Of a stretch of DNA of 64,000 nucleotides, positions 14,022 through 35,800 are shown one piece after another. Every line of letters starts with the position of its first letter. The stretch's first letter is position 1. Under the pieces are notes generated by a model. That model was not told where the DNA came from. It did not search any database and saw nothing but the letters and a program-made list of their open reading frames with translations. Position numbers and translations under genes: made by a program. The DNA lies in the IMG/VR virus record IMGVR_UViG_3300034418_003613, positions 13,088 through 77,087 of that record. The stretch is one strand, 5' to 3'. This DNA is from a virus.

Positions 14022-17000
14022 ATGGCTAAGAAGAAACAAAATATTCAGAACAAAGGTGCTGACTCTGTAGAGACTAATGTTTTTGTGAAGGGTATGAACA
14101 AGGATATCAATCCTAGTTACGAACCCAAACAATCTTGGACTCACGCAAGAAACGCTGCAAACAATTCTACAGACGGTGATGTAGGAGTACTGGGTAACGA
14201 ACCAGCTAACTTAGCCTGTGGTGTAGTTCCATATACAGTTATTGGAACAGTGCATTTATATGCAGATGAGTGGGTGCTGTATACCACTGATAATACTAAC
14301 TCTGAGATAGGTCTCTTTGATGATAGTAAATGCGAGTATAAGACTTTGGTCAATTCCAAGTGTCTTAACTTCAACAAAGAGAATTTAATTCAAGGTGCCG
14401 CAAAAGAGAACTTTGACTGCAGTTGGCAAGTATACTGGGATGATGGGAGAAACCCGTCTCGTACTCTTAATCTAGACAATATTCCTTACCAGCAAACTGT
14501 TACCTCTACACCTGGTGATGATTGTGTTATCTATGAAGATACGACCATACTAGATTGTGAGAAACTCAGATTGGCACCTCTTCTTGACACTCCTATTGTC
14601 AAACTTTCCAAAGCTCCCGATGGAGGATCTTTAAGGAATGGTATGTATCAAGCTTATATAGCTTATACTGTAAATGAGCAGAGAGTAACAGACTATATTG
14701 GTGTATCTAATCTGCAGAGTCTTTTTGATCATGACGGCACTGCAGGGTCTCTGGATATTAAGGTGTCTAATCTGGATAAAGACTTTGAGTTTTTTGAATT
14801 AGTTATTCTTAGCAACAACGCAAATAATTATGCAGCCAAGAAGATTGGGTTGTATAGCACTGAGACTAGTTCTATTTCTGTTGACTATATAGATCAGTCA
14901 TTAGTCAGTATCCCATTAGAATTATTGCCAGCTAGAAGCCCTGCGTATGAGAAGTCAGATGCAATGTTTGTTGTTAATGATTGGCTTATACGTAAAGGTC
15001 CTACAGAACAATTTGATTTTAACTATCAACCCAGAGCTAATCAGATTAAGACTGAATGGGTAGTTGCTGAATATCCTGCTGAGTATTATCGTAAGGGAGG
15101 TAACAGCACCGGCTTTATGCGTGATGAGCAGTATGCTTTCTTTATCAGATGGATTTATAATACTGGTGAAAGATCTAAGTCTTATCATATTCCAGGCAGA
15201 CCGCCAAAGAGTTCTTTTAGAAATCAGTTTAATGAGCAGATCAATAGTAGTGAAGATGGTCTAGCAGGTGGCGGAGGTCTCAATGTTTTAAGCTCTAGAG
15301 AAAAGAACTTTCAGGTATACGATACATCTACCATTCAGGCGACAGGATTAAATAATCCTACAGGGGATGGAGGTTTGGTTATTGCCAAGGGTGAGATGAG
15401 TTACTGGCAGTCTACAGAGAAGTATCCTGCAACACAACCTGAAATCTGGAATGCTACTTACACAGATGTAACTACAGGAGTAAACATTGGTGGTACCGGA
15501 GACTCTCGCTTTGATTTATGTGGTAAGTATATCCGCCATCATAAGATGCCAACTGAAGAACGTGGGCCTGAGTTGCACTTGACAAATGATTCTAATAGTA
15601 GGATTAGAGTGCTGGGTGTACAGTTCAGTGATATCAAACCTCCGGTGTTTAATGATGGCACTGTCATACCAAATATAGTTGGCTATGAGATCTTACGAGG
15701 TTCAAGAGAAGGACAAAAGTCTATCCTAGCCAAGGGAATATTTAGGAATATGCGTAAGTACAATATTCCTGAGGGTGGGCAGACCGGGGGTAATCCTGTA
15801 GGTCTTTATCCAAACTATCCATACAATGATCTAAGACCTGATGTTTATTTCCATGATGGTCAGAGAAGAGATGATCATAGAACAGATGGTACTCAGAAGT
15901 ATGCTGATTCTATTGACGACTTTAAACCACTTACAAGTGTAGCTAAGAAGTTCTTTACATTCCACTCACCAGAGCTGATGTTCAAAAGACCTTTCTTGAA
16001 TGCTTATGAGACAAGACTATATGGAGATCTTTCCGGTACATCTGTAGGGCATTTTATTAAGTCAGAGAATCATCCTCAGAATAAATTAATCAGAAATATT
16101 GCATCCATCATTGCCAGTATTATTGGGATTGGCTATGCAATTTCAAGAATAAGAGGAACTCAGGAGTCTGAACTACAAGGTTTAAGTATAAATAATAATC
16201 TTGTTGCTAATGATTATTTAGATGTTGATGTTCTCGGTGTAGGTGGTGGAGCGTCTGTTCCATATGTACCTTTTGTTGGCCCACCAGGTACAGGTGCTCT
16301 ATACGAAACAATTAGTGCAGAACAAGGTATTAATCTTGGGGTAGGTAGTTTGTTTGATTTGCTAGGAGAGATATTACTACAAGATGTAGTCGATATAAGC
16401 ACTATTTGGTTGGGACAAGGAGCTGTTGATCTTACGATGAGCTTTGGGCAAGGTAAAAATCTTACTTTAGCTTCTCGAACACCAGGTACAGACTCTGGTA
16501 AGAATATTGAGAGATTTAAAGTTGAACATCCTAGTGGCAACCTTCCAAAGTTTTTACAAGCAGCCTTTGGTTATTTTATTGCTCGTTTCAATATTGCAGA
16601 TGGTGGAAATGAAATCATAGAGTTAATCTATGGTCTTATCAAGGAAGAGGATTTTGCATTTAAGCATAACTCTCACGGCTTCTATGATACATTTACTACT
16701 AGACCAAATGGTCAAGTGTATAGGACTAGAAATGAAGACTCAAACTATATAGGTAGTACATATCAGGCTTTTAATGGTTTTAAGATTAATAATCTATTTA
16801 GACCAGATACCGTAGCAGTTGCTACTACAGATAATATAGATGATCCTAGTATTGTAGATAAATCAAGATATGTTATTAGTGGAGATGGCGGTGGTCCATT
16901 TTCTGAGTCCGTAGCTAATAAATATTTAAGGAATCCTGAGCAAGAACAAAAGAGAGATATCTCAGCAGTTTATGGTGCTTTAAAGTTTGACGCTGAGAAT

Positions 17001-20000
17001 CAGTATGGTCAACTTGATGGCATTAAGCAGGTTCAGATGCGTGGTACAATAGAACTAGTATCAGCTAATAATCCTCAAACTAAATTTTCTTCTTCTCCTA
17101 TATTTGCTGGTGATGTATATATCAACAGGTATACTGAGAAAACCATTATGCCAATCTTTGCTGACTTTTTAAATGGTCAGCCAGATCAATATACTTATGA
17201 TTACCTGCAGCGTGTAAACATTCCATACCCAAGATATTGGATGGATACGCGGAAGTTTGATATGACTAGTTTGGCAAACGAGATTGTTGGTCTGTCTTTA
17301 CCCAAAACAAGTGATCCTTTACCATCAGATCTATTCTATTTAGATAGACATAATGCAAGCATTCATGGAAGCTTAAATATATTTGACGGCGATAATGATC
17401 CCAACCCTGTTTTTGCTATGCGATATGGGTATATGTATACTCATGTCAATGGTATTCAGGACTTCTTTGTAGAGTCAGAGTATAACCTAGCTCAAAGAGA
17501 TTGGGAGGAAGCTCAGGACAAGAGGTTCTATGATCCTTATGAGTATGCTAACACGGATGATTTATTTCATGCAGACATAATCAAGAAGGACAACTACTAT
17601 AAGTATGATATCTCTCTGAGTGTATCAAAGTTCCTCACTCAGATATCTAATTTTGGAGAGGTTCAAACTAGAGATTACGATCCTAAGGTTGCTGAAGATT
17701 GTTTTAGTTATTACCCTAAGAGATTAATATACTCTCTTCAGGCCAAGACAGAATCTAAGAAAGATTTCTGGAGAGTTTTCTTACCAAACAACTACAAGGA
17801 TTTTAAGAATCCTATCAATGTAATCAAGCCTATTAATAAGAGCGGTGCCTTAGTATTATTCCCATACCAGTCACCTCAGATGTTTCAAGGTCTGGATACA
17901 CTGAAGACAGATTTAGGTACTAAGCTTACTATAGGTGATGGTGGTTTATTTAGCCAACCTTTCCAGAACATTACAAACTCAGATTTATCTAATGAGTATG
18001 GATCATGTGAGAGTCATAGGACTGTAATTAATACACCTATGGGTGTGTTCTTTATATCACAGGCTCAGGGTAAGATATTCCATTACACAGGTAAGCTAGA
18101 GAACATTGCTAATAATGGTATGAAGTGGTGGTTCAATAAGTACTTACCATCTCAGTTGATTAAGCAGTTTCCAGCATTAGAAGAAACACCATTAGCAGAT
18201 AATCCTGTAGTCGGTGTAGGATGCCAGTCTATCTATGATGTAAATAATGATGTAGTATATTTCTGTAAGAGAGACTTTAGGGTTAAAGACCAGTATAAAG
18301 ATCAGGTCAACTATACAGTACAGAATGGTTTTACATTCAATGGTTTTGTACTGCAGCCGCAGGTAAATGACGATGCACCTATCCTAAGTACTAAGATTAC
18401 ATTAGGAGATCCTCTCTACTTTGAGGATGTATCTTGGACTGTAAGCTATGACCCTAAAGCTAAGGCTTGGATCTCATTCCATGATTGGCATCCAGAACTG
18501 TGCATGCCTAGCATTAATCATTTCCTAACAACAAAGGAAAAGCAATTAGATCAACCATATTGTCCACCAGGGTATAGTTATAATCCCGTAACTCAAAACT
18601 GTGAGATAACTATTGGTGACTCTGCCCCAGCAATTGTAAATGTAGAAGAGGTACTTGCTAATCTACAGACACAGACTTGTGATATTGATTTGGTATTATG
18701 CATGGACTACTCTGCAAGTACAAATGCAAATCAACAATCAATTCTTAAAAATCAACATCAGTTTATTTCTGATTTTTTAGACAATTCTGATGTACAGTCA
18801 GCTCTATCTTCTGGTAGATTACAAATGGGCTTTACAGCTTTTGGTAGTGCAGAAAGCACTTTTATGAATCTAAGAACTAGTGGCAATGTTCAAAAGACTA
18901 TGGCTAATACTTTTGATCCTGACACTGTTATTGATGGATTAGGTTTTAGTTCTAGTGCAACAGCTTACTATAACACATTAGATCCTAGCGGACAAAAAAC
19001 CAATTTCTGTCGTGGTATATATAATGCGTTTGAAGTTTTAAATTCTAAGAGTACTACAGAACTTGGTGATAGAAGTGGTAATGCTAATTTTATTCAGGCG
19101 GTAATAGTTATTACAGATGCTCGTTGTAGAGCTAATACAACCAGCCCTCCAAACAGCTTTAATGAAAAAAATAATTGCCGGGCTGGTGGTTCTTCAATTG
19201 GTATGACATATCAAAGCAGTCTTCTAGGTGGTGGTGGTCCAGCCAATCAGTATATCTACACTGTATGGTGTGGGGAGAATCAGGATGTTTTTGATAGTCA
19301 AGGCAATATTAAAATATCTGATGATTGTGCTAATGCAACTCAGGGTATTTATCCTTTTACCGGAAATGATATTTTAGATAATCTTACTGGTGATGCTAAT
19401 ACACCAAACAGACAGAATCAATATATCATTCTTTCGCAACAGCCATTGAATGACCAGAAAACAGATTATGTTGCACAGCAGATTATTAACTCTATTTGTT
19501 CTTTTTCATGCTCTTGTCCAACGGGTTACACTTTAGTATATCCGGGCAACAATGGTTACACAGAACCAACAGGTGACTGTAATGATGTTAATCCACCTAT
19601 ATGTAGAAAGATTGGGTGTGAATGTCCTCCTCCTATAAATCCTAAAGGACTCACAACGAAGATTGGTAACTGTGATGATGTTTATAAAGCAGGACCTAAT
19701 GGAGATCCTAACTATGTAAACCCTAATCCAGTTATCTGTAGTTTCTTTTATGAGGATATTACACCTGCCGTAACTACAGGTTCTGGTATATGGAGACATA
19801 ACTATAGGTGTGATTTGTTTGCTAACTACTATGGTGTAGATTATCCATGGGAAGTAGAGTTAGTAGAAAACACAGGTCAGAATGTAAACACTGTTAGAAG
19901 TTTAGAATATCAGTTAGAGTCTTACGTCTATAAAGGAGATCTGCACGATGGGTGTGGTGATGACAGATGGCATGATCTTGATTTCAACTTTGATGAGCTG

Positions 20001-20396
20001 ATTGTTCATAACACAGAACAAGTGTCTGGATTACTAAGAATCCACAATCAGTTCAAGAATGATCCGATGAAAGGATTAGAGTATCCAAAAGTGAATCTTT
20101 CAGATATTGAAATACTCTCATCAAAAGTTGAACAGAAATATCGTATTAATCAATTCTGGGATACTACCCATGATAGAGGTGAGTTTTCAAATGCTCAGCA
20201 AGAGATATTTAAAACACGCCGGAATGGTTATATCAGAGATTTAAACTCTGGCAACTTAGATTATAGCAAGTCTGCTTTTGAAAGAAAAAAGTTTAGACAT
20301 TACTATAACAAGTTCTTATTAACAAGAAGGATTTCAGCAGATAGAAAGATGCTGTTGAAGCTAAATAATACCAAACTTAATTTATCATTCAGGTGA
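14022..20396 (+). CDS. Muzzle / tail stabilization protein with inserted vWA domain
   Basis: 2124 aa. N-terminal 'FVKGMNKD', beta-propeller-like 'YWDDGRNPSRTLN', 'FMRDEQYAF', 'WTVSYD..WISFHDW'. vWA MIDAS DYSAS at 18705-18719. Confidence 0.75.
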   Translation: MAKKKQNIQNKGADSVETNVFVKGMNKDINPSYEPKQSWTHARNAANNSTDGDVGVLGNEPANLACGVVPYTVIGTVHLYADEWVLYTTDNTNSEIGLFDDSKCEYKTLVNSKCLNFNKENLIQGAAKENFDCSWQVYWDDGRNPSRTLNLDNIPYQQTVTSTPGDDCVIYEDTTILDCEKLRLAPLLDTPIVKLSKAPDGGSLRNGMYQAYIAYTVNEQRVTDYIGVSNLQSLFDHDGTAGSLDIKVSNLDKDFEFFELVILSNNANNYAAKKIGLYSTETSSISVDYIDQSLVSIPLELLPARSPAYEKSDAMFVVNDWLIRKGPTEQFDFNYQPRANQIKTEWVVAEYPAEYYRKGGNSTGFMRDEQYAFFIRWIYNTGERSKSYHIPGRPPKSSFRNQFNEQINSSEDGLAGGGGLNVLSSREKNFQVYDTSTIQATGLNNPTGDGGLVIAKGEMSYWQSTEKYPATQPEIWNATYTDVTTGVNIGGTGDSRFDLCGKYIRHHKMPTEERGPELHLTNDSNSRIRVLGVQFSDIKPPVFNDGTVIPNIVGYEILRGSREGQKSILAKGIFRNMRKYNIPEGGQTGGNPVGLYPNYPYNDLRPDVYFHDGQRRDDHRTDGTQKYADSIDDFKPLTSVAKKFFTFHSPELMFKRPFLNAYETRLYGDLSGTSVGHFIKSENHPQNKLIRNIASIIASIIGIGYAISRIRGTQESELQGLSINNNLVANDYLDVDVLGVGGGASVPYVPFVGPPGTGALYETISAEQGINLGVGSLFDLLGEILLQDVVDISTIWLGQGAVDLTMSFGQGKNLTLASRTPGTDSGKNIERFKVEHPSGNLPKFLQAAFGYFIARFNIADGGNEIIELIYGLIKEEDFAFKHNSHGFYDTFTTRPNGQVYRTRNEDSNYIGSTYQAFNGFKINNLFRPDTVAVATTDNIDDPSIVDKSRYVISGDGGGPFSESVANKYLRNPEQEQKRDISAVYGALKFDAENQYGQLDGIKQVQMRGTIELVSANNPQTKFSSSPIFAGDVYINRYTEKTIMPIFADFLNGQPDQYTYDYLQRVNIPYPRYWMDTRKFDMTSLANEIVGLSLPKTSDPLPSDLFYLDRHNASIHGSLNIFDGDNDPNPVFAMRYGYMYTHVNGIQDFFVESEYNLAQRDWEEAQDKRFYDPYEYANTDDLFHADIIKKDNYYKYDISLSVSKFLTQISNFGEVQTRDYDPKVAEDCFSYYPKRLIYSLQAKTESKKDFWRVFLPNNYKDFKNPINVIKPINKSGALVLFPYQSPQMFQGLDTLKTDLGTKLTIGDGGLFSQPFQNITNSDLSNEYGSCESHRTVINTPMGVFFISQAQGKIFHYTGKLENIANNGMKWWFNKYLPSQLIKQFPALEETPLADNPVVGVGCQSIYDVNNDVVYFCKRDFRVKDQYKDQVNYTVQNGFTFNGFVLQPQVNDDAPILSTKITLGDPLYFEDVSWTVSYDPKAKAWISFHDWHPELCMPSINHFLTTKEKQLDQPYCPPGYSYNPVTQNCEITIGDSAPAIVNVEEVLANLQTQTCDIDLVLCMDYSASTNANQQSILKNQHQFISDFLDNSDVQSALSSGRLQMGFTAFGSAESTFMNLRTSGNVQKTMANTFDPDTVIDGLGFSSSATAYYNTLDPSGQKTNFCRGIYNAFEVLNSKSTTELGDRSGNANFIQAVIVITDARCRANTTSPPNSFNEKNNCRAGGSSIGMTYQSSLLGGGGPANQYIYTVWCGENQDVFDSQGNIKISDDCANATQGIYPFTGNDILDNLTGDANTPNRQNQYIILSQQPLNDQKTDYVAQQIINSICSFSCSCPTGYTLVYPGNNGYTEPTGDCNDVNPPICRKIGCECPPPINPKGLTTKIGNCDDVYKAGPNGDPNYVNPNPVICSFFYEDITPAVTTGSGIWRHNYRCDLFANYYGVDYPWEVELVENTGQNVNTVRSLEYQLESYVYKGDLHDGCGDDRWHDLDFNFDELIVHNTEQVSGLLRIHNQFKNDPMKGLEYPKVNLSDIEILSSKVEQKYRINQFWDTTHDRGEFSNAQQEIFKTRRNGYIRDLNSGNLDYSKSAFERKKFRHYYNKFLLTRRISADRKMLLKLNNTKLNLSFR

Positions 20397-23300
20397 TGAA
20401 AGGGAAATACGAAAAGTCAGAGCGTAGAGGTTTACCTGGTGGACCCAATGAGATGTTTACTTATACAACTGGAATATTCTCTACCCAGGGATATAAGAGA
20501 GACTCCCCTGATGTAGATAACCCTTTTAACATTATTCCTTCAGGTGACATTACCATGAAGGGTGTGGACTTCCCTGTTCTAGGTACAGACAATTTAGGGA
20601 ACTCTAAGATGATGACTCCCGGTAATGATTATAAGTTTCCTGGAGATATGGTATTTGAACTTCCCATGGCTAAAGATGGCTTAGCATTAGATCCTCCGTC
20701 AAAAGAAAAGGAGATGGTTAATCTTCATGACTTTCTAATAACTGAGGAAGATCTAGAGTTTCTTAATAGTGAGCGTTGTTTTGGAGGTAACTGTTTGGAG
20801 AACACAAGAAAGGCTTTTGATGCAACAGCGGGTAGTATCTCGGGTGTTCCCTATACAGCTAATGTTTGGGGAAAAGATGATCTGGATATAACAAGCATTA
20901 AAAACACACCAACTAAGCAGCAAGTACAAGACTTTCCATGGATGGATGGTGATAGAGGGGTGGGTGCTGCGGATAGTTGGGATATACAAGGAAACATAGT
21001 ACGTGCAGAAGGTAAGACTTTATATAACAGGAATAAGGAGGGCGCAAAGATTGAATCTGATGACAAAGAGATTGATGATCCTACAGGAAAGTTTCAACCC
21101 GGTCAATACCCTATAGGATCTATTTACAGTTTTGGTCCTAAGGGTCGCACCGATACACCTTATGGGCAAAGAGCAAAAGGATTTAATATTGATTATGGTT
21201 TACAACCATCTCATCATAGTGTTATGTCTGTTGGTGTAAATGAAAAAGGAGAAATTATTCTTTATGATGCATATCTAAAGAAATATGATACAGAAGAGAA
21301 TATTATAAAGCAAATAGCTAATTCACCGCTAGGCTACGAACTTGAAACAGTAGGAGTACCAAAGAGTTATGCTAGCCTTACTCCTCAGAACATTAAACTA
21401 TCTGACAACTTTTATAGACCTCGTTATTTTACAGAGTATCAGTTTGATGTTGATCGTTTAGATGAGATTAGACAAGATCCTAAGTTTAGGATTAAAGAAG
21501 ATGATAAGTTTAGAGCACCTCGTCTAGATAAAGAGGCTATGCAGGAGTTTAGCCAATCTCTTAAAGATAACAAAGAGACTATGATGGAAGCTCTACGCCT
21601 TACTAGTGATGAGTATGATGACTTAGCAAATTTGTCAATAGCATTGGCAATGGGTGAATCTGAAGGAGGGGGTGGTCTTAGTGTTGATTGGGCTGGTTCC
21701 ACACAAGGTCTTACTCAGTTGAACTTTGACAACATCAAAGATGATGAAGTATTAAGTCGTCAGCTTGCTATGTTCAATGAAAGTGTTAGAGGTCCTCAAA
21801 AGATTAAACAATTAGCAGATTTAAGAGACCCGGCAAAATCAGCTATTGCTACATTGATATATACAAATGCTGGCAGAAGACGATCTAGTAAGTTGTATGA
21901 AGAGGGTCTAGAACCTGGTGTTAGAAATTTTTATGACAACACTGGGCTTAAAGATTTAGTAAGATCCTCATCTTCAAGGATTAATAGATCCGGTGTTTAC
22001 TTAGATGAGTTAAATGATAGAGTCAGTTTTTCTGATATTCCTGGATGGAATGAAAAAAATGTAAAAAAGATTACAACTTCTTTAAATGCTTTAACGGGCA
22101 CTAATAGATATCAAGCAGATATTGATGATGATGGAGATGTCTATATAAAGATGAAGACATTAGGCAATGACCCTAACATGTCTGATGCAATGAAGATAGG
22201 TTATTGGTGGCAGAGCCCTTCATCATTAAAAACAGGGGATGCTCAGGGTGGTAATGTACATGCTAAGAGAATAGAAGGATATTACAAAGCCATCTCTGAA
22301 AAAACTCCAGAGGTTTCTACCGACAAGCTAATGGCAAGCAACACAGAGATTCCTGAGATGCAAAAGGCTGGAGAGTTAAAAGCACAAGATCTAGTCCCTC
22401 GTGATCCATTTAGTACTTTGAGTCCTGCTCAACGTGAAGCTTTTAACGCTAGCACTGTAGCAGCTCTGAAAGCTGAAGAGGAACGACAGTTGAAGGAATA
22501 CATGAGAAGAAGCCCTGGGGGTGATTTGTTTCCGGATCAAGGTCTAAAACCTATTACTTATAATGAAGAAGTAGCAGGTTGGTTCCCTGTAGCAGGTGAA
22601 TACATTGATGCAAAAAATACTGGAGAAGCTTTAATGCGAGGTGACTATGTAGATGCTGGTTTTAATGCTGCTGGTTTTCTCTTACCGTTTATTCCTGGTA
22701 GTTTTCTAAAAAAACTAGCCACTTCTCCTTATACTCCTAAATTTTCTAAGCCTTCTCTTTTAAAACAATATAGATCAAAGTTTCCTGCAGCAGATATACG
22801 CGGTGCGGGTACAGGTGATTATAGCAATCTTGGCATTGATGAGTTAGGATTACGTGGAGATGACTTTATATCATTGACAAATTATGAGCGCAGTGCTATT
22901 TCTCAAGTAAATCAGGCTCAGGCAGCTGATGATGTTTTTAACACTTTTGTTCAGCGGTATGCAGATTTTAACACGGATGATGCTTTAGCAAATCAGTTGG
23001 CAGATTTTTCAAGAAAGAATCCAAGGACCAAGTTTGAAATGAATCTTGGCAAAGACGCTACGCCTTCTAAAAGAATGCAAGAAATATTTGATGATCCTGA
23101 ATTAAACATACATAATGTTTTTAGTCTTGAGTCTCCAGGTCCTACGACCGTCAAAAATACATATACCGGATACTATGACAAACGTTTTTATGATGGGTCC
23201 GCTCATGATCCGAGTGGGGAGTGGGATAAAAACTTAAGATCTTATGGTCAGCAAGGGTTTTATGCAACAAATGTTCCTACAGGAAAACCGGTAAGACAGT

Positions 23301-24682
23301 CTTTAACTCACACTAACAGAAGAGGTGAACTTTTTGATTACAAAATAGAAACAGTACCTGTTGCAGATTATATGGTAAATAAGGGATTAATGAACCCAGA
23401 TAATATAGTTAATTTAGGTCGCCATAGAGGACTTGATCCGGCTAATCAACATAACCATTTATTATTTGATACTGATAAACCATCTGTTATTGTATCTGGC
23501 AATAGAGGTTTTGCTGGGTTAAGTGGTGGTAATACGTCTAGAATGCAAATGGGTAGGGTAGGCATTCCAAAACCTAATAGAAATGTCCCTTCTTATAATA
23601 CAGAAATACTTCCTTTGCTGAAGCAAGAGTTTAATTTATCTAGGCCATTTGAAGGAACCTTTATGAAATTACCAAGGTCTAGAACAACTTATTATAACAG
23701 TAAAGGTGAAGCATCTAAATATATTAATGATCGTCAATTAGATTCTGATATATTTTTTACAAGAAAAAATGGCGGCCCACTACCTAAAGCTCAAGAAGGG
23801 CAAGAAGTATATAAGGTCAAGTCAGGTGATACTTTTTTAGGCATTGCCAATAGATTGGAAATACCCAGAGAAGACTTTATAGAGGCTAACCCTGATATAA
23901 ACATTGACAAGCTTTCGTTGGGTCAGAAGCTTAATATTCCTGTGAAGAAACCTTATGTACCAACTAATGATGTTATACCATCTGAGATGTTATGGAGGCA
24001 AGCTTTTGCAGAATCTAACTGGGAGACTGATGTAGAAAATAAAGGAGGCTATAAAGGTTTGGGTCAGATTGGTGATGATGTTATTACAGATTACAAGAAG
24101 GCATTTAAAGTCAAAGAAGTAGATCCATTTGATCCAGTTCAGAATTCTACTATTCACAAGTGGTATATGAATAAACTATACAACAGTGAATGGATAAATA
24201 AACCTAATCAGGATCCTAATGTGCGTTTAGCAAAAGCTCTTGCTGCTTACAACTGGGGACCGAAGACAGCTAGAAAGTGGTTTACTGATCAAAGGAAAGC
24301 CGGTGTTGATATCTATAATAGTTTTGATTGGCTAGAGGATTTACCTAGCGAGCCAAAGGGATACATAGATATGATCATCTTTAATAAGAATACTCCCACT
24401 AGGAAGTATGTTGAGGACTTGGCAAAGGCTATGACAGATACAACACTTACTAATCAGATTACTAATCTATATAAGAGAGCGGGAGGTGAGATGAATAAAC
24501 TAGAGATGTATAAGGGTTACATCAATGGTGAGTTTGATGGTACAGATCTAGAACCAAAAGCTCAAAAAGTTTATGATAGAATGAATAGAGTTTACTATGC
24601 GCCAGCCAAGAAAGCAGGTATGTCTCCTCCTAATTTTATCATGACAAACATCATCCCACGGCAGCTTCAGACTGTTCTCTAG
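20393..24682 (+). CDS. Modular virion cargo protein: papain/CHAP-like module, lytic transglycosylase-like module, pre-toxin-TG-like + unknown module, LysM + SLT transglycosylase
   Basis: LysM (YKVKSGDTFLGIA..NPDINIDKLSLGQKLNIP) and SLT (AESN..GLGQI..DPVQN..LAAYNWGP) are clear. A second ES..GLTQ..DP module and a C...H...D module are recognisable but weaker. Confidence 0.75.
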   Translation: MMKGKYEKSERRGLPGGPNEMFTYTTGIFSTQGYKRDSPDVDNPFNIIPSGDITMKGVDFPVLGTDNLGNSKMMTPGNDYKFPGDMVFELPMAKDGLALDPPSKEKEMVNLHDFLITEEDLEFLNSERCFGGNCLENTRKAFDATAGSISGVPYTANVWGKDDLDITSIKNTPTKQQVQDFPWMDGDRGVGAADSWDIQGNIVRAEGKTLYNRNKEGAKIESDDKEIDDPTGKFQPGQYPIGSIYSFGPKGRTDTPYGQRAKGFNIDYGLQPSHHSVMSVGVNEKGEIILYDAYLKKYDTEENIIKQIANSPLGYELETVGVPKSYASLTPQNIKLSDNFYRPRYFTEYQFDVDRLDEIRQDPKFRIKEDDKFRAPRLDKEAMQEFSQSLKDNKETMMEALRLTSDEYDDLANLSIALAMGESEGGGGLSVDWAGSTQGLTQLNFDNIKDDEVLSRQLAMFNESVRGPQKIKQLADLRDPAKSAIATLIYTNAGRRRSSKLYEEGLEPGVRNFYDNTGLKDLVRSSSSRINRSGVYLDELNDRVSFSDIPGWNEKNVKKITTSLNALTGTNRYQADIDDDGDVYIKMKTLGNDPNMSDAMKIGYWWQSPSSLKTGDAQGGNVHAKRIEGYYKAISEKTPEVSTDKLMASNTEIPEMQKAGELKAQDLVPRDPFSTLSPAQREAFNASTVAALKAEEERQLKEYMRRSPGGDLFPDQGLKPITYNEEVAGWFPVAGEYIDAKNTGEALMRGDYVDAGFNAAGFLLPFIPGSFLKKLATSPYTPKFSKPSLLKQYRSKFPAADIRGAGTGDYSNLGIDELGLRGDDFISLTNYERSAISQVNQAQAADDVFNTFVQRYADFNTDDALANQLADFSRKNPRTKFEMNLGKDATPSKRMQEIFDDPELNIHNVFSLESPGPTTVKNTYTGYYDKRFYDGSAHDPSGEWDKNLRSYGQQGFYATNVPTGKPVRQSLTHTNRRGELFDYKIETVPVADYMVNKGLMNPDNIVNLGRHRGLDPANQHNHLLFDTDKPSVIVSGNRGFAGLSGGNTSRMQMGRVGIPKPNRNVPSYNTEILPLLKQEFNLSRPFEGTFMKLPRSRTTYYNSKGEASKYINDRQLDSDIFFTRKNGGPLPKAQEGQEVYKVKSGDTFLGIANRLEIPREDFIEANPDINIDKLSLGQKLNIPVKKPYVPTNDVIPSEMLWRQAFAESNWETDVENKGGYKGLGQIGDDVITDYKKAFKVKEVDPFDPVQNSTIHKWYMNKLYNSEWINKPNQDPNVRLAKALAAYNWGPKTARKWFTDQRKAGVDIYNSFDWLEDLPSEPKGYIDMIIFNKNTPTRKYVEDLAKAMTDTTLTNQITNLYKRAGGEMNKLEMYKGYINGEFDGTDLEPKAQKVYDRMNRVYYAPAKKAGMSPPNFIMTNIIPRQLQTVL

Positions 24683-24724: not shown

Positions 24725-27322
24725 ATGAAGAGAGCTCGTTTAAATAAAAAAGGTTTAGCTAAGTTCCAGAATGCGGGGGAGTTTAAGAAAGAGCTTAGAC
24801 CAATCGGATCAAGAGAACCAAAGAAACCAATAACCCTTCAGGGTATGTCTGGTATGTCTTTGAAGGAACTAGACAAATTAAAAGAGGCTCATGGACTTCA
24901 TAAGTCCAATCTTGCAAAAACAGAGGATTACAAAAAGTATGAAGATGATTGGAAGAACCTTCTAGAAAGACAGCAAGTTTTTGTTACTCGAATTGGGGAT
25001 AAATATAGAAGACCTTCTTTTAATCTTAATTATGATACGCTTGGTTTACATTATGATCACGAGTTATTTAATGAAATATCCCCTGAAGATAGCGCGGAGT
25101 TACAATCTCTTCTTGACGAGGAAATGGACTTTTCTAGTCCAGAGAATTTAGAGATGTGGGAAGAGATGGATTGGAGAGATTGGCATAGTGATGAAATAAG
25201 ACATGCTTATAGTTCTGCTGCTACAGCAGATAAAGTTAGTGACGCGCTAAGTAAGATACCGGGTTATGGAGGAGTTCTGGAATATACTGGTATGAATGAT
25301 GTTTTAGGTTTTTTAGCTTCAAACCTTTTAGGTGCTGGTCATGAAGCTGCTTTTTTTAAGGACCAGATGTCTGAGGAAGAAGATAAGTATGACTATGTTA
25401 GGTCGGGTATGAACTCTGCTGAAGACATGTGGAATAATTTATTGGGTGCTTACATAGGAGCTACATCAGATAGTGAAGAAGAGATGGAACAAAAGATTAG
25501 ATCTTATATAAATAAAGGTATAACAGCTACAGGGGGAATAGAACCAGCACAAGATCCTAATACTCTTGGTATCAAGAAAGCTTTAAAAAACTGGGTAACC
25601 AACAATTCTTCAGATCTAGAGCCAGCGTTTGAAGAATATCAAAAAGGAGGTAACTGGCCTGATAATAAATTTATGACCTTGGTTGATCCTAAAGGTAGAA
25701 AATCAAAAAGTCCAAGAGATCCTTCACTTCGCATTGGAGCACAAACACTTGCACCAGTAATGCGGAAGACTGATGATGATATCAGAACTGCCTATGGGTT
25801 TACAGTTAATCCAGCTTTGTACTCTTATGTTTTTGACAGAGACCGCAATTCTGAATTAAGGGGTACTCTTAGAAATGAAATATTCTGGTATCAAAGCCCT
25901 ATAGAAAAAGATGCATATAATCAAGATATACTTCAGGGTGGTTTAGGAGCCATGGCTGATATCGACTACACAACCTTACTTCAAAAGCGTAACATGAGAA
26001 ACATGGCCATTGATCTTGGTCTTGATGCTGGGTTAGGTGTAGGAACTATGGAAGTAGGCCCCATGTATGAGTATGATAAGGATAATGCTGGCCAGGCTTT
26101 ACCTTATGGATATCTTACAGGGAAGGCGGGTTTAAGAGATCGTAGAAGCGGACTTCAAGGTAATATATTTGCCGGGTATGGAACTCCCAGATCTCCAGAG
26201 GCAGGATTTAGAATAGGAGCGGAAGGGAGTATTCCTCTTATTACAAACAAGAGAGGATTGAAGATTACTGGTCATCCTTCTGCTAGTTATGACTTTATAT
26301 CTGGTACTCCGAGGTTTGGGTTTAGTATTGGGTTCAATTCTCCTTCTAGAAGGCAGCAAGGTGGTTCAACGTCTACAGCTCAAGGTAGTAGTTTGGCGGA
26401 GGATGTTATAGGTCAGATTCGGCTGGGAGTCTCTGCTGTAAAAGTTTATAAAGATCTTTTAAGGCAGATGATACCTGTTGATGAGATTGATAATGCTTTT
26501 ACTCAAGCCGGATATGATCAGAATACTATTACTCAGCTTCAGCGTCAGGCTAGTAAAAGTATTACAGATGACATGGTAGATACGTCTATAGCGGAAAGAG
26601 GAATCAGACAAGCTAAATCTGGTAAAGAGCTTTTAAATAAACGTAAGAGACTTCCTAAATATCAAGACCTTGGAGAGTTTCCCGATCCTACTGGAAAGTT
26701 TGAAGCAGAATATGATCAGATGAATGTGGAAGGAGAGGAGATGGATAATATGAATTATGAACCTCCAGTTACACCATCTACAGCATCTACAGCTAGCGGA
26801 AGTGTGGATGTTAATATTCCTGCGTCTAGTGTAGCTTCAGTAGAAACGGCAGATGCTACACCTGAGAATGAAGCAAGGATGCTTAAGGAGATGGAGGAGT
26901 TTAGAAATATTGGTGCTGAATCAGGTGGTCTTAGAGGTTTTGTGGGTAAGGTTGGGGACTTTGTAAAGTCTGAAGGCTTTCAAAACTTTTTAGATGGCTA
27001 TGGCACTGTTGGTAACGTAGGTGTTGGCTTAGCAAGTATGACAAATAAGTTTCTTAGAGATAGAGATGCTAGAGATGTAAAAAATCAGAGAAGGCAAATG
27101 ACACCAGCTGATATGATGTATTCTATGTATGAAGAAAGAGACGGCGACAGAGGTGATGTTGATGTACGTTCAGGTATATATCAGCCGGATAATTTAGTTG
27201 CTGCAATGGGTATGGAGATGCCTTCTATGATGCCGCCTGTTATTCAGGAACAGATTGTAGATTTAGATACTGAAACTATTACAAGATTGATATCTGCTGG
27301 TGCGGATATAGAAATGTTATAA
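24725..27322 (+). CDS. Modular virion cargo protein (RH..HE..DxxNN helical module + beta-barrel-like module)
   Basis: 865 aa, no Cys. DEIRHAY..GHE..EDMWNN motif followed by ~230 aa of alternating Gly/aromatic beta strands. Confidence 0.6.
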   Translation: MKRARLNKKGLAKFQNAGEFKKELRPIGSREPKKPITLQGMSGMSLKELDKLKEAHGLHKSNLAKTEDYKKYEDDWKNLLERQQVFVTRIGDKYRRPSFNLNYDTLGLHYDHELFNEISPEDSAELQSLLDEEMDFSSPENLEMWEEMDWRDWHSDEIRHAYSSAATADKVSDALSKIPGYGGVLEYTGMNDVLGFLASNLLGAGHEAAFFKDQMSEEEDKYDYVRSGMNSAEDMWNNLLGAYIGATSDSEEEMEQKIRSYINKGITATGGIEPAQDPNTLGIKKALKNWVTNNSSDLEPAFEEYQKGGNWPDNKFMTLVDPKGRKSKSPRDPSLRIGAQTLAPVMRKTDDDIRTAYGFTVNPALYSYVFDRDRNSELRGTLRNEIFWYQSPIEKDAYNQDILQGGLGAMADIDYTTLLQKRNMRNMAIDLGLDAGLGVGTMEVGPMYEYDKDNAGQALPYGYLTGKAGLRDRRSGLQGNIFAGYGTPRSPEAGFRIGAEGSIPLITNKRGLKITGHPSASYDFISGTPRFGFSIGFNSPSRRQQGGSTSTAQGSSLAEDVIGQIRLGVSAVKVYKDLLRQMIPVDEIDNAFTQAGYDQNTITQLQRQASKSITDDMVDTSIAERGIRQAKSGKELLNKRKRLPKYQDLGEFPDPTGKFEAEYDQMNVEGEEMDNMNYEPPVTPSTASTASGSVDVNIPASSVASVETADATPENEARMLKEMEEFRNIGAESGGLRGFVGKVGDFVKSEGFQNFLDGYGTVGNVGVGLASMTNKFLRDRDARDVKNQRRQMTPADMMYSMYEERDGDRGDVDVRSGIYQPDNLVAAMGMEMPSMMPPVIQEQIVDLDTETITRLISAGADIEML

Positions 27323-32898: not shown

Positions 32899-35800
32899 AT
32901 GGATTTACCTAATGAACCAAATGTAGAGCAGGACTCTAAGGTACCAGGCGCAATAGATATTCCACCTTCTGTTCCTACAGATAATTTTGTGTTTCAACCA
33001 TCTGACAGTTGGTTGGATACACCAATGACTCAGGAATTTACCGCAACTCTTGATCCTGACTATGTAGCGCAGATAGAACACTACAAACCTATCATAGATA
33101 GATATGCGCCTGGTTCCTTAGCTAATTTTAATACACCATTTCCAGGACAGTCTGTAAACCAATATAATCCTGTAAGCCAGCAGACTGCTCCTGATATCTC
33201 TACTGCAGAAGGAGCATTAAGAGATTTACAGATGACTTTAGATCAAGGCATGTCTGTAGATGCTATGGGTACTGTAAAGCAACGCAAGATTCAGGATCCA
33301 ATATTTGCTTCTAGAAAAGCTTCACAGTTTGATAGATATTATGAGCATCCCAAGTTTGCTGAGTTAGGATTCCATCCTTATGCAAACAATGAGCAGTTTT
33401 ATAATACTAACTCAGACATCTTTGATGATATGTCTAGGATGAGTGGTCAGTTTGGACAACTTGTTGGTTCTGGATTTATCAGTACATATAGAAGTATTGG
33501 AGATCTTTTTGATCAAGATGAGAGTTACTTTACCCAACCAGACCTCCAAACTGCTGATGAATTTGAAGAAGCTATGGCTATTGGTATGTCTACACGAGAA
33601 GGTGTGGGTGCATTTGCCAACAACCTGTTATTGAATTCTGGTTACACAGTTGGTATTATTGGGTCTATTGCATTAGAAGAATTAGTATTAGCTGGTCTAA
33701 CTGCAGTAACTGGTGGTGCTGGTAGTGCTGCACTTGCTGCTGGTACGGCTAGGAATGTTGGTAGATTAGGGCAGGTTGTAGCCAACTCTTTTAAACTGCC
33801 ACGACTAGCTAAAGCTACCCGGCAGATGCTGCAGACTCTTAACCAGACTGACAATGCTAGAGATTTCTGGAAGGCCACAAAGTCTGGTGAATGGGGTATC
33901 ATGGGTACATTGTTTGCACCAGAGACTATGGCTGCTGTCAAGAGTTTAAAGACTGGTAAGAATGCTGCACAGAACTTAACCAACCTTGCTAAAGCTCAGA
34001 ATGTATTTGGTGGTTTCTATAGAGACTTAAGAGCTGTCAACCTTGCTTTTGCTGAGAGTAAGCTTGAGGGTGGTATGGTTTATAACCAACAGATTCAGAA
34101 TGGTTTAGCTATTCAAGAGGCTAAGGGAGACCTGAGTCCTGAAGCATTAGATCGTGTTAGAGAGGGTGCTGATAGAGCTGCCTTTGGTACTATCATGATG
34201 AATGCTCCTTTGATTTACTTCTCTAACCGGCTTGTATTAGATAATGCGCTGGGTGGATTTAATAAGTCTCTGGGTAGATTGATGAATGATAAGATTACCG
34301 GTGTAGGTAGAAAGATCATTCAAACCACCAAGACCATTGGTAAAGATGGGAAGATTGCTAGAGATGTCTTTGATATTGCCGAAGATGGTCTCAAAGGCTA
34401 TCTAAAAAGAATGAAGGCTGCAGGCGTCAAAGGGTCATTAAGACTTGGTGCTGGAGCTAGCCTTAGATACTTTGCAGCTAACGTAGCTGAAGGTATTCAA
34501 GAGATAGGACAGGAAGCAATTGGATTTGGTACAAAGCAGTACTATTCTAATTTGATCAATGATCCTATGTATGGAGGAGCGGAGATGGTAGGTACTGCTA
34601 TTTCTTCTGCTGTTGACAGTCAGTTCTCTGAACAGGGTGTTGAGACTTTCTTATCTGGTTTCTTGATGGGTGGTGTTGTACAGGGACCACAGAAGCTCTT
34701 GTTCCAAGGCATGCCGAATCTTTACACAAGAGTTGCTACACCTGAGAAGTATAAAGAGTATAAAGAGAACAAGAAAAAGTTTTATGACAGTCTGAAGGAG
34801 ACTCACAACAAGGCATGGAATGCTATGGCAGAGGATCCTAATGCAGTGTTTGATCCTAACAAATTAAACTTCTTGGTTCAGAAGGAGGTAGCCGCTGAGA
34901 TGAAGAGATCTGCCTATGCTGATGATCAGTTTGGGTTTATGGATGCTAAAGACTTTGGTAAGTTTCAGCAGATGTTTACCATCATGCAAAATGGAACTTC
35001 CGACCTGTTTAGAAAGCAGTTACAAGATTATCTAAACCTTACAGATGAAGAGCTAGTTCAAGCATTCCCTGTATCTAAGAACGAGGTTAAGTCTGGTAAG
35101 CTAAGGGAAAGAATTCAAGATATGATTACTCAGATAGATAAGACTGAGGAAGCATATAATAAGAATAAGGACAAGTTTGAGAATCCTTTTGATCCACAAA
35201 AATTTGACAAAGACTCAAGGGAATATCGTGATGAGCAGCTAAAGCAGATTGCCTATGAGCATGCTAGATATCTCTATATGTTTACAGAGGATGGTTTCAA
35301 TAGAGCATTAGAGAGAGCTGACACAATCTATAATGAATTAGCAAGTGATCCTATCTTAAGTAAGATTGCTGCCAATGACATTACCGTGTTGCTTGATCAA
35401 GATACTTTAGCTAAAGAGGTTGAGACCTTGATGCTTGAGATTGCTACACTTGAGGATACTGGTGAGAATAAAAAACTTAAAGAGCAGAAACTTGAGAGGT
35501 TAACTAAGCTCCAAGCTCTTTATGGAATACTTTCAGATCCTGAGAATCTTACTTCTAAGGGTGTGTTTGATAGAAGAAAGATCAACAAGGTTACAAAAGC
35601 GTTTGAGGCATATGTACAATATCTTGCCGATACAAAGGATGGTTTTGTAGACAGAAAGCGGATCCAAGAAGTTCTTAAGAAAATTGTTGATTATAAGGCA
35701 CTTAAGGGTAGAGCTCGGGTATACGATAAGGCTATCCAGTATCTTTCTAATCCAAAGAATCTTGATGATATTGTTGCAAGACAATATGAGATCAATAAGC

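What the first reader, a model, noticed from the sequence alone, without database searches (positions are those of the whole stretch)
25652..26350. Outer-membrane beta-barrel-like module embedded inside a virion cargo protein
Between YQKGG and RQQGG lie ~230 aa with about 9-10 amphipathic strands of alternating Gly/hydrophobic residues: LRIGAQT, YGFTVNP, GGLGAMADIDY, IDLGLDAGLGVG, YGYLTGKAGL, LQGNIFAGYG, FRIGAEGSIPL, ITGHPSASYDF and a final PRFGFSIGF resembling a terminal beta-signal. There is no signal peptide, so delivery would be from the virion. It could form an outer-membrane conduit for ejection or act in superinfection exclusion.
Basis: partly seen in the sequence, partly recalled or inferred. 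Interest (0 to 1): 0.7.

Follow-up and report, generated by a model that had tools for sequence, protein, structure and literature searches.

The report
Membrane-barrel-like cassette in phage cargo protein
A marine crAss-like phage carries, inside a protein it probably packs in its particle and ejects into the host, a rare swappable module of about 235 residues that is predicted to fold like a ten-stranded bacterial outer-membrane barrel; the phage ejection pores described so far are helical, so this would be a new way to grip the host envelope, but membrane insertion is only inferred.

Summary
Residues 310-545 of an 865-aa ORF (24725-27322, +) are a Gly-rich run of amphipathic beta-strands. 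The ORF lies two genes after the crAss muzzle gene.

AlphaFold2 gives 10-11 long strands, with core pLDDT of 80-91. Its best structural matches are outer-membrane barrels: designed TMB10_163 (Z 12.6), OpcA (Z 11.7) and the BrkA beta-domain (Z 11.6). Soluble ten-strand barrels score lower (Z about 9.5).

Several sequence features fit a membrane barrel:
- One strand face is L/Y/I/A/V/F.
- The other face is G/D/N/S/T/R and is the more conserved.
- Long, indel-prone loops lie on one side; short turns and both termini lie on the other.
- The last strand, RFGFSIGF, fits the beta-signal pattern.

The module is a cassette. One close homologue lacks exactly this stretch, another keeps it but lacks the N-domain, and others carry it in different proteins. 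It has no Pfam, PDB-sequence or bacterial relative, and only about a dozen phage protein clusters hold it.

I could not measure the outward hydrophobic belt, because model coordinates are not exposed. Membrane insertion is therefore inferred. A single ten-strand barrel is too narrow for DNA, so an anchor is likelier than a conduit. Superinfection exclusion has no support.

This scan has already reported similar cassettes in other marine crAss-like genomes.

The parts
24725..27322 (+). 865-aa modular cargo-type protein (P0001). Layout: basic leader, helical N-domain, beta-barrel cassette, middle region, conserved C-terminal domain.
   Evidence: ORF list and translation. Each segment has its own set of homologues in the exhaustive HMMER search.
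24725..24787 (+). Basic leader MKRARLNKKGLAKFQNAGEFK (aa 1-21), shared by the variants with and without each payload module.
   Evidence: Alignment A1. Similar MK(R/K)-rich starts followed by YQxGG in more distant carriers.
25052..25624 (+). Helical N-domain (aa 110-300) with invariant D156, R159-H160, G205-H206-E207, D234, N237-N238. It is a separate shuffled module, not part of the barrel.
   Evidence: Alignment A4. AF2 gives a helical bundle with core pLDDT 85-95. No PDB fold match. In other proteins it is joined to SLT, CHAP, LysM or YkuD domains.
25637..25651 (+). Upstream Gly-Gly linker YQKGG (aa 305-309). In relatives it is extended to GG(N/D)VLPKAQRG(R/N)G.
25652..26359 (+). Beta-barrel cassette (aa 310-545) as delimited by the exact absence of this stretch in homologue P0005.
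   Evidence: A1 alignment: P0005 reads YQK|GGS across the gap. P0006 and P0007 carry the cassette in other contexts.
25727..26338 (+). Predicted barrel proper (aa 335-538). Strands: 335-342, 354-361, 364-372, 376-391, 402-418, 427-440, 459-472, 478-486, 494-507, 513-523, 528-538.
   Evidence: AF2 model m98f4d5e9047d. Coordinates. Fold matches.
26312..26335 (+). Last-strand motif RFGFSIGF (aa 530-537), which fits the outer-membrane beta-signal pattern polar-x-G-x-x-hydrophobic-x-aromatic.
   Evidence: Sequence. The pattern itself is from my own knowledge of OMP biogenesis. It is kept as RYG(V/L)xLxM in subfamily B, while Gly is lost in subfamily C.
26348..26365 (+). Downstream linker RRQQGG (aa 542-547). 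In relatives it reads KQGGSLPKAQxG.
26942..27319 (+). Conserved C-terminal domain (aa 740-865, ending LISAGADIEML). It is shared by more than 30 protein clusters with different payloads and is a candidate virion-incorporation or anchoring domain (inferred).
   Evidence: (hits to query 735-865).
14022..20396 (+). Crassvirus muzzle protein gene (2124 aa), which defines the structural and cargo block.
   Evidence: Pfam crAss_MUZ, E 3.1e-33. Relatives in Cellulophaga and Flavobacterium phages.
20393..24682 (+). Neighbouring 1429-aa cargo-type protein with LysM and an SLT lytic transglycosylase domain.
   Evidence: Pfam LysM 2.7e-08 and SLT 7.4e-11.

Best explanation
Residues 310-545 are a self-contained, horizontally shuffled domain cassette that folds as a roughly ten-stranded antiparallel barrel of the outer-membrane type. 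It sits in a modular protein that a marine crAss-like podovirus most likely packs in its virion and extrudes, partly unfolded, through the tail at infection. The proposed mechanism is inferred. The chain leaves the muzzle unfolded. The barrel segment then folds into the host outer membrane, as outer-membrane proteins can do from the unfolded state. It acts as a membrane anchor or small pore that fixes the ejected protein assembly to the envelope. That assembly includes this protein's envelope-directed helical N-domain and the neighbouring LysM-SLT protein. The barrel is not proposed to be the DNA channel. What is shown: the module exists, is conserved and is modular; the predicted fold is a barrel; its sequence has membrane-barrel features. 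What is inferred: virion packaging, ejection and membrane insertion.
For: Fold:
- AF2 on an 11-sequence alignment gives 10-11 strands of 8-17 residues, pTM 0.65, core pLDDT 80-91, and all five models lie between 63 and 68.
- The listed Foldseek PDB rows, ranks 1-48, are all membrane beta-barrels.
- In the Foldseek-independent VIA search the top 11 rows are membrane barrels. Examples are TMB10_163 (Z 12.6, rmsd 2.8 over 137 of 143 residues), OpcA (Z 11.7) and BrkA (Z 11.6). The first soluble barrel appears at Z 9.8.

Sequence features:
- The hydrophobic strand face is L 18%, Y 12%, I 10%, A 9%, V 8%, F 7%.
- The other face is G 24%, D 10%, N 9%, S 9%, T 8%, R 7% and only 3% K. It holds more invariant columns than the hydrophobic face, 18 against 11.
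- Long connections (11, 10, 18, 7 and 4 aa) alternate with short ones (3, 8, 5 and 5 aa), and both termini lie on the short-turn side.
- The large indels between subfamilies fall in the long loops.
- The last strand fits the beta-signal pattern.

Cassette behaviour:
- P0005 lacks exactly this stretch, P0006 keeps it without the N-domain, and P0007, P0013, P0025 and P0083 carry it in other proteins.

Context:
- The gene is the second after the muzzle gene and lies next to a LysM-SLT protein.
- A 31%-identical copy sits in a similar position in a TARA contig.
- In PhiCrAss001 the genes after the muzzle encode cargo proteins that are thought to unfold for ejection and to form the trans-envelope channel.
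Against: - Model coordinates are not exposed, so I did not measure which face points outward. The face composition argument is indirect.
- Soluble ten-strand barrels (CpeS, nitrobindin, Rv0813, LolA) also match, at Z 7.6-9.8.
- The alignment is shallow (11 rows, three subfamilies). Foldseek E-values are only about 1e-3, with TM 0.35-0.40.
- The N-terminal strands (aa 335-391) and strand 459-472 are only weakly amphipathic.
- No sequence relationship to any Pfam outer-membrane family was found.
- The close homologue P0005 does without the module, so it is not essential to this protein's core role.
- Virion presence rests on synteny alone. There is no detectable similarity to PhiCrAss001 gp45 or gp46.
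- Spontaneous insertion into an LPS leaflet from outside has no precedent that I know of.
Confidence: 0.45

Rival explanations
1. It is a soluble ten-strand barrel of the lipocalin, nitrobindin, CpeS or LolA type. The hydrophobic face lines the interior. It would serve as a ligand- or lipid-binding domain, or as a purely structural domain of the cargo protein, and never enter a membrane.
For: Soluble barrels match the model at Z 7.6-9.8 with 120-158 aligned residues. An alternating pattern alone fits either orientation. The module's mean hydropathy is -0.60. Some strands are weakly amphipathic.
Against: The polar face is 24-28% Gly with only 3% Lys, which is unusual for a solvent-exposed sheet surface (general knowledge). 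That face is also the more conserved one. The top 11 VIA rows and the listed Foldseek rows, ranks 1-48, are membrane barrels. The loop and turn asymmetry and the beta-signal-like last strand are outer-membrane traits.
Confidence: 0.2
2. It is an oligomeric beta-pore. Hairpins or whole sheets from many copies of the protein (for example 6-12 per virion) would join into one wide barrel spanning the outer membrane and serve as the actual conduit for cargo and DNA.
For: Cargo proteins occur in up to 12 copies in PhiCrAss001 and are expected to build the trans-envelope channel. The beta-rich amphipathic strands are real.
Against: The monomer model already closes on itself like a ten-strand barrel (137 of 143 residues of TMB10_163 at 2.8 A). 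No oligomer evidence was sought or found. The module is dispensable in the close homologue P0005, which is odd for the DNA conduit.
Confidence: 0.1
3. It has no stable native fold. On this reading it is a Gly-rich beta-prone spacer or packing segment that stays extended or aggregated inside the capsid, and AlphaFold2 imposes a barrel on it.
For: Mean pLDDT is only 68 with a shallow alignment. Language-model recognition is low, with all atlas scores below 0.9. An earlier report of this scan found one such cassette elsewhere that looked closer to curli than to porins (e1-6045639).
Against: 29 invariant columns persist across subfamilies that are 30-41% identical. These include charged residues D430, D434, R496, D523 and R530. 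Indels are confined to predicted loops. Strand cores reach pLDDT 88-91.
Confidence: 0.1
4. It is a host-derived outer-membrane protein gene fragment acting as a moron or a superinfection-exclusion factor expressed in the infected cell.
For: Phages do carry stand-alone outer-membrane protein genes. BFVD matches include 'porin domain' and 'outer membrane protein beta-barrel' proteins of uncultured phages.
Against: There is no signal peptide and the module is internal to a long structural-block ORF. No relative was found in 185,579 species genomes, nor any stand-alone bacterial relative in the protein collections.
Confidence: 0.03

Closest known systems
Small monomeric outer-membrane beta-barrels of 10-12 strands (OpcA, OmpT/Pla, KdgM/NanC, autotransporter beta-domains, designed TMB10_163)
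   Same: Predicted antiparallel meander barrel with long strands (Z 9.5-12.6). One strand face is hydrophobic and aromatic, the other Gly-rich and polar. Long loops alternate with short turns. The last strand is beta-signal-like.
   Different: No signal peptide. The module is embedded in the middle of an 865-aa phage protein. No sequence match to any Pfam outer-membrane family. Delivery would be from outside the cell rather than through Sec and BAM. Membrane insertion is untested.
PhiCrAss001 cargo proteins C1 (gp45) and C2 (gp46), Bayfield et al. 2023 (PMC10172136)
   Same: The gene lies just downstream of the muzzle gene in the structural block. Expected behaviour is the same: packed in the virion, extruded partly unfolded, and thought to build the envelope-spanning channel.
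   Different: No detectable sequence similarity. According to that paper, gp45 carries a predicted transmembrane helix and resolved alpha-helical and compact segments, and gp46 is predicted to be alpha-helical. Here there is no hydrophobic helix, but there is a beta-barrel module.
Podovirus ejectosome outer-membrane components: T7 gp14, P22 gp7, DEV gp73 (PMC11445570)
   Same: The proposed role is the same: a virion-delivered protein that enters the host outer membrane at the start of ejection.
   Different: Where described, those are small membrane proteins. DEV gp73 has a predicted transmembrane alpha-helix and hydrophobic helices, and forms a nonameric channel about 25 A wide. This one is a monomeric-looking beta-barrel domain inside a large modular protein.
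OmpA-like architecture (membrane barrel fused to an envelope-binding domain)
   Same: A barrel is joined in one chain to non-membrane domains. The N-domain family is elsewhere fused to cell-wall modules: SLT, CHAP, LysM and YkuD.
   Different: The domain order and the domains themselves are unrelated. This is an analogy from general knowledge, not a tested relationship.

Membership tests
Outer-membrane beta-barrel proteins (membrane beta-barrel superfamily) | Closed antiparallel meander barrel with an even number of strands | tested here: met
   By prediction only. AF2 gives 10-11 strands. The model superposes on 137 of 143 residues of the ten-strand TMB10_163 at 2.8 A (Z 12.6) and on OpcA at Z 11.7. 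Whether aa 354-372 is one bulged strand or a hairpin is unresolved.
Outer-membrane beta-barrel proteins (membrane beta-barrel superfamily) | Outward-facing hydrophobic belt with aromatic girdles and a polar or small-residue interior | tested here: inconclusive
Face composition (L/Y/I/A/V/F against G/D/N/S/T/R, with K at 3%) and higher conservation of the polar face fit a membrane barrel. Four strands are weakly amphipathic.
Outer-membrane beta-barrel proteins (membrane beta-barrel superfamily) | Long loops on one side, short turns and both termini on the other, with length variation in the loops | tested here: met
   Connection lengths are 11, 10, 18, 7 and 4 aa on one side against 3, 8, 5 and 5 aa on the other. 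Subfamily indels of 18-30 aa fall in the long loops at aa 392-401 and 441-458.
Outer-membrane beta-barrel proteins (membrane beta-barrel superfamily) | Beta-signal in the last strand | tested here: inconclusive
   RFGFSIGF (aa 530-537) and RYG(V/L)xLxM in subfamily B fit the pattern. Subfamily C lacks the Gly. The strand is internal to the protein and is followed by 327 residues. The pattern definition is from my own knowledge.
Outer-membrane beta-barrel proteins (membrane beta-barrel superfamily) | N-terminal signal peptide for Sec export | tested here: not met
   The N-terminus is basic and hydrophilic, and there is no hydrophobic stretch anywhere in the protein (maximum 19-residue KD 1.20).
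Outer-membrane beta-barrel proteins (membrane beta-barrel superfamily) | Sequence match to a curated outer-membrane family model | tested here: not met
   No Pfam family at E <= 10 for the module. None in any of 11 relatives at E <= 1. PF13568 finds nothing in the genome. Language-model neighbours are outer-membrane families but all score below 0.9.
Crassvirus cargo proteins C1/C2 (gp45/gp46) | Gene in the block directly downstream of the muzzle gene | tested here: met
   The muzzle gene is 14022-20396 (crAss_MUZ, E 3e-33). It is followed by the 1429-aa LysM-SLT ORF and then by this ORF. The TARA locus L003 has a similar gene order, although no muzzle family was detected there.
Crassvirus cargo proteins C1/C2 (gp45/gp46) | Sequence similarity to gp45 or gp46 | tested here: not met
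   phmmer of the whole protein against all PDB chains, which I take to include the PhiCrAss001 virion chains, found no hit at E <= 10. No PHROG hit.
Crassvirus cargo proteins C1/C2 (gp45/gp46) | Detected inside purified virions | not testable with these tools
   The phage is uncultured (an IMG/VR record, 66% complete).
Podovirus ejectosome outer-membrane pore proteins (T7 gp14, P22 gp7, DEV gp73) | Small helical protein with a hydrophobic transmembrane helix that forms an oligomeric pore | tested here: not met
   No hydrophobic helix. The module is all-beta. Properties of gp73 are taken from PMC11445570.
Autotransporter beta-domain | 12-strand C-terminal barrel with a linker helix in the pore, and a signal peptide | tested here: not met
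   Structural matches exist (BrkA Z 11.6, Hbp Z 10.6, NalP Z 10.1). However, the model has 10-11 strands, the barrel is not C-terminal, and there is no signal peptide.

The most novel reading that the evidence does not exclude
A phage delivers an unfolded outer-membrane-type beta-barrel from the virion into the host outer membrane. The barrel either inserts on its own or uses the host BAM machinery through its beta-signal-like last strand. This would be the first beta-barrel component of a phage ejection apparatus. It would also be an exchangeable payload that marine crAss-like phages shuffle between cargo proteins at Gly-Gly / LPKAQxG linkers.
Probability: 0.35. Interest if true: 0.8.

Novelty: new variant of a known kind. 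Interest (0 to 1): 0.6.

Why it matters
How crAss-like phages cross the Bacteroidota envelope is still open. The only structural study proposes that cargo proteins build a channel, but it saw helical segments and one predicted transmembrane helix (PMC10172136). The characterised podovirus outer-membrane ejection components are membrane-inserting proteins; for DEV gp73 a transmembrane helix is predicted (PMC11445570).

A virion-borne beta-barrel would be a different physical solution. It fits the need to pass the tail unfolded, because outer-membrane barrels are the one class of membrane proteins known to fold into bilayers from the unfolded state without energy input (general knowledge).

The idea is directly testable with a 25-kDa recombinant domain. 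The cassette behaviour also gives natural with-and-without variants for comparison.

Tried and rejected
Searches that found nothing:
- Pfam and PHROGs on the whole protein and on the module: no family.
- PDB sequence searches with the protein and with the profile: nothing meaningful.
- tblastn against 50,697 GenBank phage records with P0001 and P0035: no match.
- IMG/VR scan with the module profile: no relative other than the own record.
- GTDB species genomes: no relative.
- PF13568 in the own genome: none.
- PHROGs and PDB sequence searches on the 4940-aa and 1883-aa downstream ORFs, to confirm the RNA-polymerase block: no hits. Only a GADFDIDK motif was seen at aa 3740.

Tools and alignments that did not work:
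I therefore could not fetch the genomic context of P0005, P0006 and P0067, and could not decide whether the 298-aa P0067 is a complete stand-alone barrel protein.
- A 76-sequence global alignment (A3) misaligned the shuffled N-domains and was not used for folding.

Other results with no bearing on the barrel:
- N-domain model: helical bundle, no PDB fold match by Foldseek.
- The DNA at the two cassette borders shares only a 9-of-12 imperfect repeat. This is no clear recombination site.
- GC rises to 0.44 in the Gly-rich half, as expected from GGN codons. It is not a sign of foreign origin.

Not done:
- No homo-oligomer prediction was sent, because I do not claim oligomerisation.
- No transmembrane beta-barrel predictor and no model coordinates were available.

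Rejected readings: superinfection exclusion, host-derived moron and autotransporter.
Full report
**Observation.** The window is part of a 77-kb IMG/VR virus record that is estimated to be 66% complete. ORF 24725-27322 (+) encodes 865 residues. The finding's span, 25652-26350, is aa 310-542. All quoted peptides are present. YQKGG is aa 305-309 and RRQQGG is aa 542-547.

The module has 11.9% Gly and 3.0% Glu, against 8.4% and 9.2% in the rest of the protein. Its beta-periodic hydrophobic moment exceeds shuffles (z = 2.35; 27 of 2000 shuffles reach it). It gives the strongest beta-over-alpha signal among the cargo-block proteins, with 17% Gly and 6% K+E in the best 150-aa window. The protein has no signal peptide and no hydrophobic helix.

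**Context.** The 2124-aa ORF at 14022-20396 is a crassvirus muzzle protein (Pfam crAss_MUZ, E 3.1e-33). The next ORF (1429 aa) carries LysM and an SLT transglycosylase domain. Then comes the target ORF, followed by ORFs of 777, 1072, 4940 and 1883 aa.

The muzzle's nearest named relatives are in Cellulophaga and Flavobacterium phages and other distant crAss-like phages, at about 25% identity. One module relative comes from a TARA Oceans scaffold. The phage is therefore most likely a marine crAss-like podovirus of Bacteroidota. The host is inferred.

In PhiCrAss001 the genes after the muzzle encode the cargo proteins gp45 and gp46 and the polymerase-associated proteins. [quoted passage not shown] Cargo status here rests on this synteny only. 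There is no sequence similarity to any solved chain.

**The module is a cassette.** Among close homologues:
- P0005 is 88% identical over the matched stretches but lacks exactly aa 310-545, reading YQK|GGS across the gap.
- P0006 keeps the leader and a 38-41%-identical module but lacks aa 22-298.
- P0007 carries a 90%-identical module inside an otherwise different 1185-aa protein.

The exhaustive HMMER search of 1.84 billion representatives shows that the N-domain (aa 110-300), the module, and the C-terminal domain (aa 740-865) each have separate sets of relatives. A profile search added P0083, P0085 and P0086.

All carriers are long phage-type proteins. They have a basic MK-rich start and the same C-terminal (L/M)(I/M)(S/A)AGAD(I/F)(E/Q)(M/I)(L/I/M) tail. 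In them the module sits between GG(N/D/E)(V/E)(L/I)P(K/R)AQxG and (K/E)(Q/E/D)GG linkers.

No relative was found in IMG/VR, in GenBank phages or in 185,579 species genomes. The family is rare, with about a dozen 90%-identity clusters. One carrier, P0035, lies on contigs of about 114.9 kb. In locus L003 it has a similar gene order.

**Fold.** AlphaFold2 was run on aa 296-562 with an 11-row alignment.
- It gave pTM 0.65 and mean pLDDT 68. The disordered linkers at both ends pull the mean down, and strand blocks reach 80-91.
- It gave eleven DSSP strands of 8-17 residues between aa 335 and 538.
- The listed Foldseek PDB rows, ranks 1-48, are all membrane beta-barrels (OMPLA, TMB10_163, Pla/OmpT, autotransporter beta-domains, OmpG, NanC, FadL, BamA). 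E-values are modest at 1e-3 to 2e-2, with TM 0.25-0.40.
- VIA-align, which does not depend on Foldseek, ranks membrane barrels in all of its top 11 rows: designed ten-strand TMB10_163 (Z 12.6, rmsd 2.8 A, 137 of 143 residues), OpcA (Z 11.7), BrkA beta-domain (Z 11.6), a Legionella T4SS porin (Z 10.8) and KdgM (Z 10.5).
- Soluble ten-strand barrels follow at Z 9.4-9.8 (CpeS, Rv0813, nitrobindin). In all, 13 of the 50 listed rows are soluble.
- BFVD matches are stand-alone outer-membrane-like proteins of uncultured phages.

**Membrane-type or soluble?** The tools do not expose model coordinates, so I could not measure which face points outward. The indirect evidence favours the membrane type:

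1. Across six non-redundant sequences, the hydrophobic face of the strands is L 18%, Y 12%, I 10%, A 9%, V 8% and F 7%. The other face is G 24%, D 10%, N 9%, S 9%, T 8% and R 7%, with only 3% K. In the better-conserved C-terminal six strands Gly reaches 28%. A solvent-exposed sheet surface is normally rich in Lys and Glu and poor in Gly, whereas the lumen of small outer-membrane barrels is rich in Gly, Ser, Thr, Asn, Asp and Arg (general knowledge).
2. The polar face is the more conserved: 18 invariant columns against 11. It includes charged D430, D434, R496, D523 and R530. This is as expected if it is the packed interior and the other face only needs to stay hydrophobic.
3. Connections alternate between long (11, 10, 18, 7 and 4 aa) and short (3, 8, 5 and 5 aa), with both termini on the short-turn side. 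The 18-30-aa insertions of subfamily C fall in two long loops.
4. The last strand, R-F-G-F-S-I-G-F, fits the beta-signal pattern. Subfamily B also fits; subfamily C fits only partly.
5. Language-model neighbours are outer-membrane families (NfrA_C, BcsS, PagL, Tsx, KdgM, OMP_b-brl). All score below 0.9, so they count only as leads.

Against the membrane type: strands 335-391 and 459-472 are weakly amphipathic, no Pfam outer-membrane model matches, and the alignment is shallow. I put the membrane-type fold at about 0.6-0.65.

**Mechanism.** The best reading is that the chain is extruded unfolded through the tail. The barrel segment then folds into the host outer membrane and anchors the ejected assembly. 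That assembly includes this protein's helical N-domain, whose family is elsewhere fused to SLT, CHAP, LysM and YkuD cell-wall modules, and the neighbouring LysM-SLT protein.

A monomeric ten-strand barrel has a Calpha radius of about 9-10 A by standard barrel geometry, and its interior is filled with side chains. It therefore cannot carry dsDNA. The conduit idea would need an oligomeric form, for which there is no evidence. The module's absence from P0005 also argues that it is an accessory payload rather than the core channel. Superinfection exclusion is not supported.

Rivals are a soluble barrel (0.2), an oligomeric pore (0.1), no stable fold (0.1) and a host-derived moron (0.03).

**Comparison with what is known.** The characterised outer-membrane components of podovirus ejectosomes are T7 gp14, P22 gp7 and DEV gp73. 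They are membrane-inserting, and DEV gp73 has a predicted transmembrane helix and forms a nonameric channel (PMC11445570). PhiCrAss001 gp45 has a predicted transmembrane helix. Full-text searches found no paper describing a beta-barrel module in an ejection or internal virion protein.

The module fails two defining features of bona fide outer-membrane proteins: a signal peptide and family-model membership. I therefore file it as outer-membrane-barrel-like, not as a member.

**Earlier scan results.** Follow-up reports of this scan describe similar barrel-like cassettes in cargo proteins of other marine crAss-like genomes. Examples are e1-6028115, e1-6006157, e1-5949405, e1-6006146 and e1-6076151. 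I did not test those sequences. They agree with my reading and suggest that the feature is recurrent in this phage group. They do not add independent proof of membrane insertion.

**Limits.** No transmembrane beta-barrel predictor or model coordinates were available.

Noticed in passing
window 25052-25624 (aa 110-300 of the same ORF): A separate shuffled N-domain with invariant D156, R159-H160, G205-H206-E207, D234 and N237-N238. AF2 gives a helical bundle with core pLDDT 85-95 and no PDB fold match by Foldseek. One relative (P0020) has a weak sub-threshold DUF6973 hit. In other proteins the domain is fused to SLT, CHAP, LysM or YkuD modules, which suggests an envelope-directed enzyme or binding domain.
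   Followed up: partly
window 26942-27319 (aa 740-865): A C-terminal domain ending LISAGADIEML is shared by more than 30 protein clusters with quite different upstream payloads. It is a candidate virion-incorporation or anchoring signal for modular cargo proteins.
   Followed up: partly
window 25637-25651 and 26348-26365; relatives in A5: In relatives the cassette is bracketed by GG(N/D)VLPKAQRG(N/R)G upstream and KQGGSLPKAQxG downstream. The window copy keeps only YQKGG and RRQQGG-STSTAQG. The neighbouring 1429-aa protein has LPMAKDG (aa 88) and GGPLPKAQEG (aa 1128, just before LysM). These could be recombination joints or protease sites. This was not tested.
   Followed up: partly
P0067 (298 aa, ENA contigs of at most 1685 bp): This protein consists of a basic leader plus the barrel only and ends four residues after the last strand (…NYTFKNK). 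It may be a stand-alone barrel cargo protein or a fragment. The context could not be fetched.
   Followed up: partly
L003:2-4723 (TARA scaffold): The large 5'-open ORF two genes upstream of the module-bearing gene carries a VWA_2 domain (E 3.7e-06) but no detectable crAss_MUZ match.
   Followed up: no
window 32899-47721: A 4940-aa ORF with no PHROG or PDB sequence match. A GADFDIDK motif at aa 3740 may be the polymerase metal-binding loop of a giant virion RNA polymerase.
   Followed up: partly
window 58330-63579: A 1749-aa ORF with strongly beta-periodic stretches that are poor in K and E (aa 948-1097: 2% K+E, 12% aromatic). It is probably a fibre or spike protein.
   Followed up: no
window 26132-26359 (-): A 75-aa TTG-started antisense ORF inside the Gly-rich half of the module. 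It is probably an artefact of GGN/NCC codon composition.
   Followed up: no
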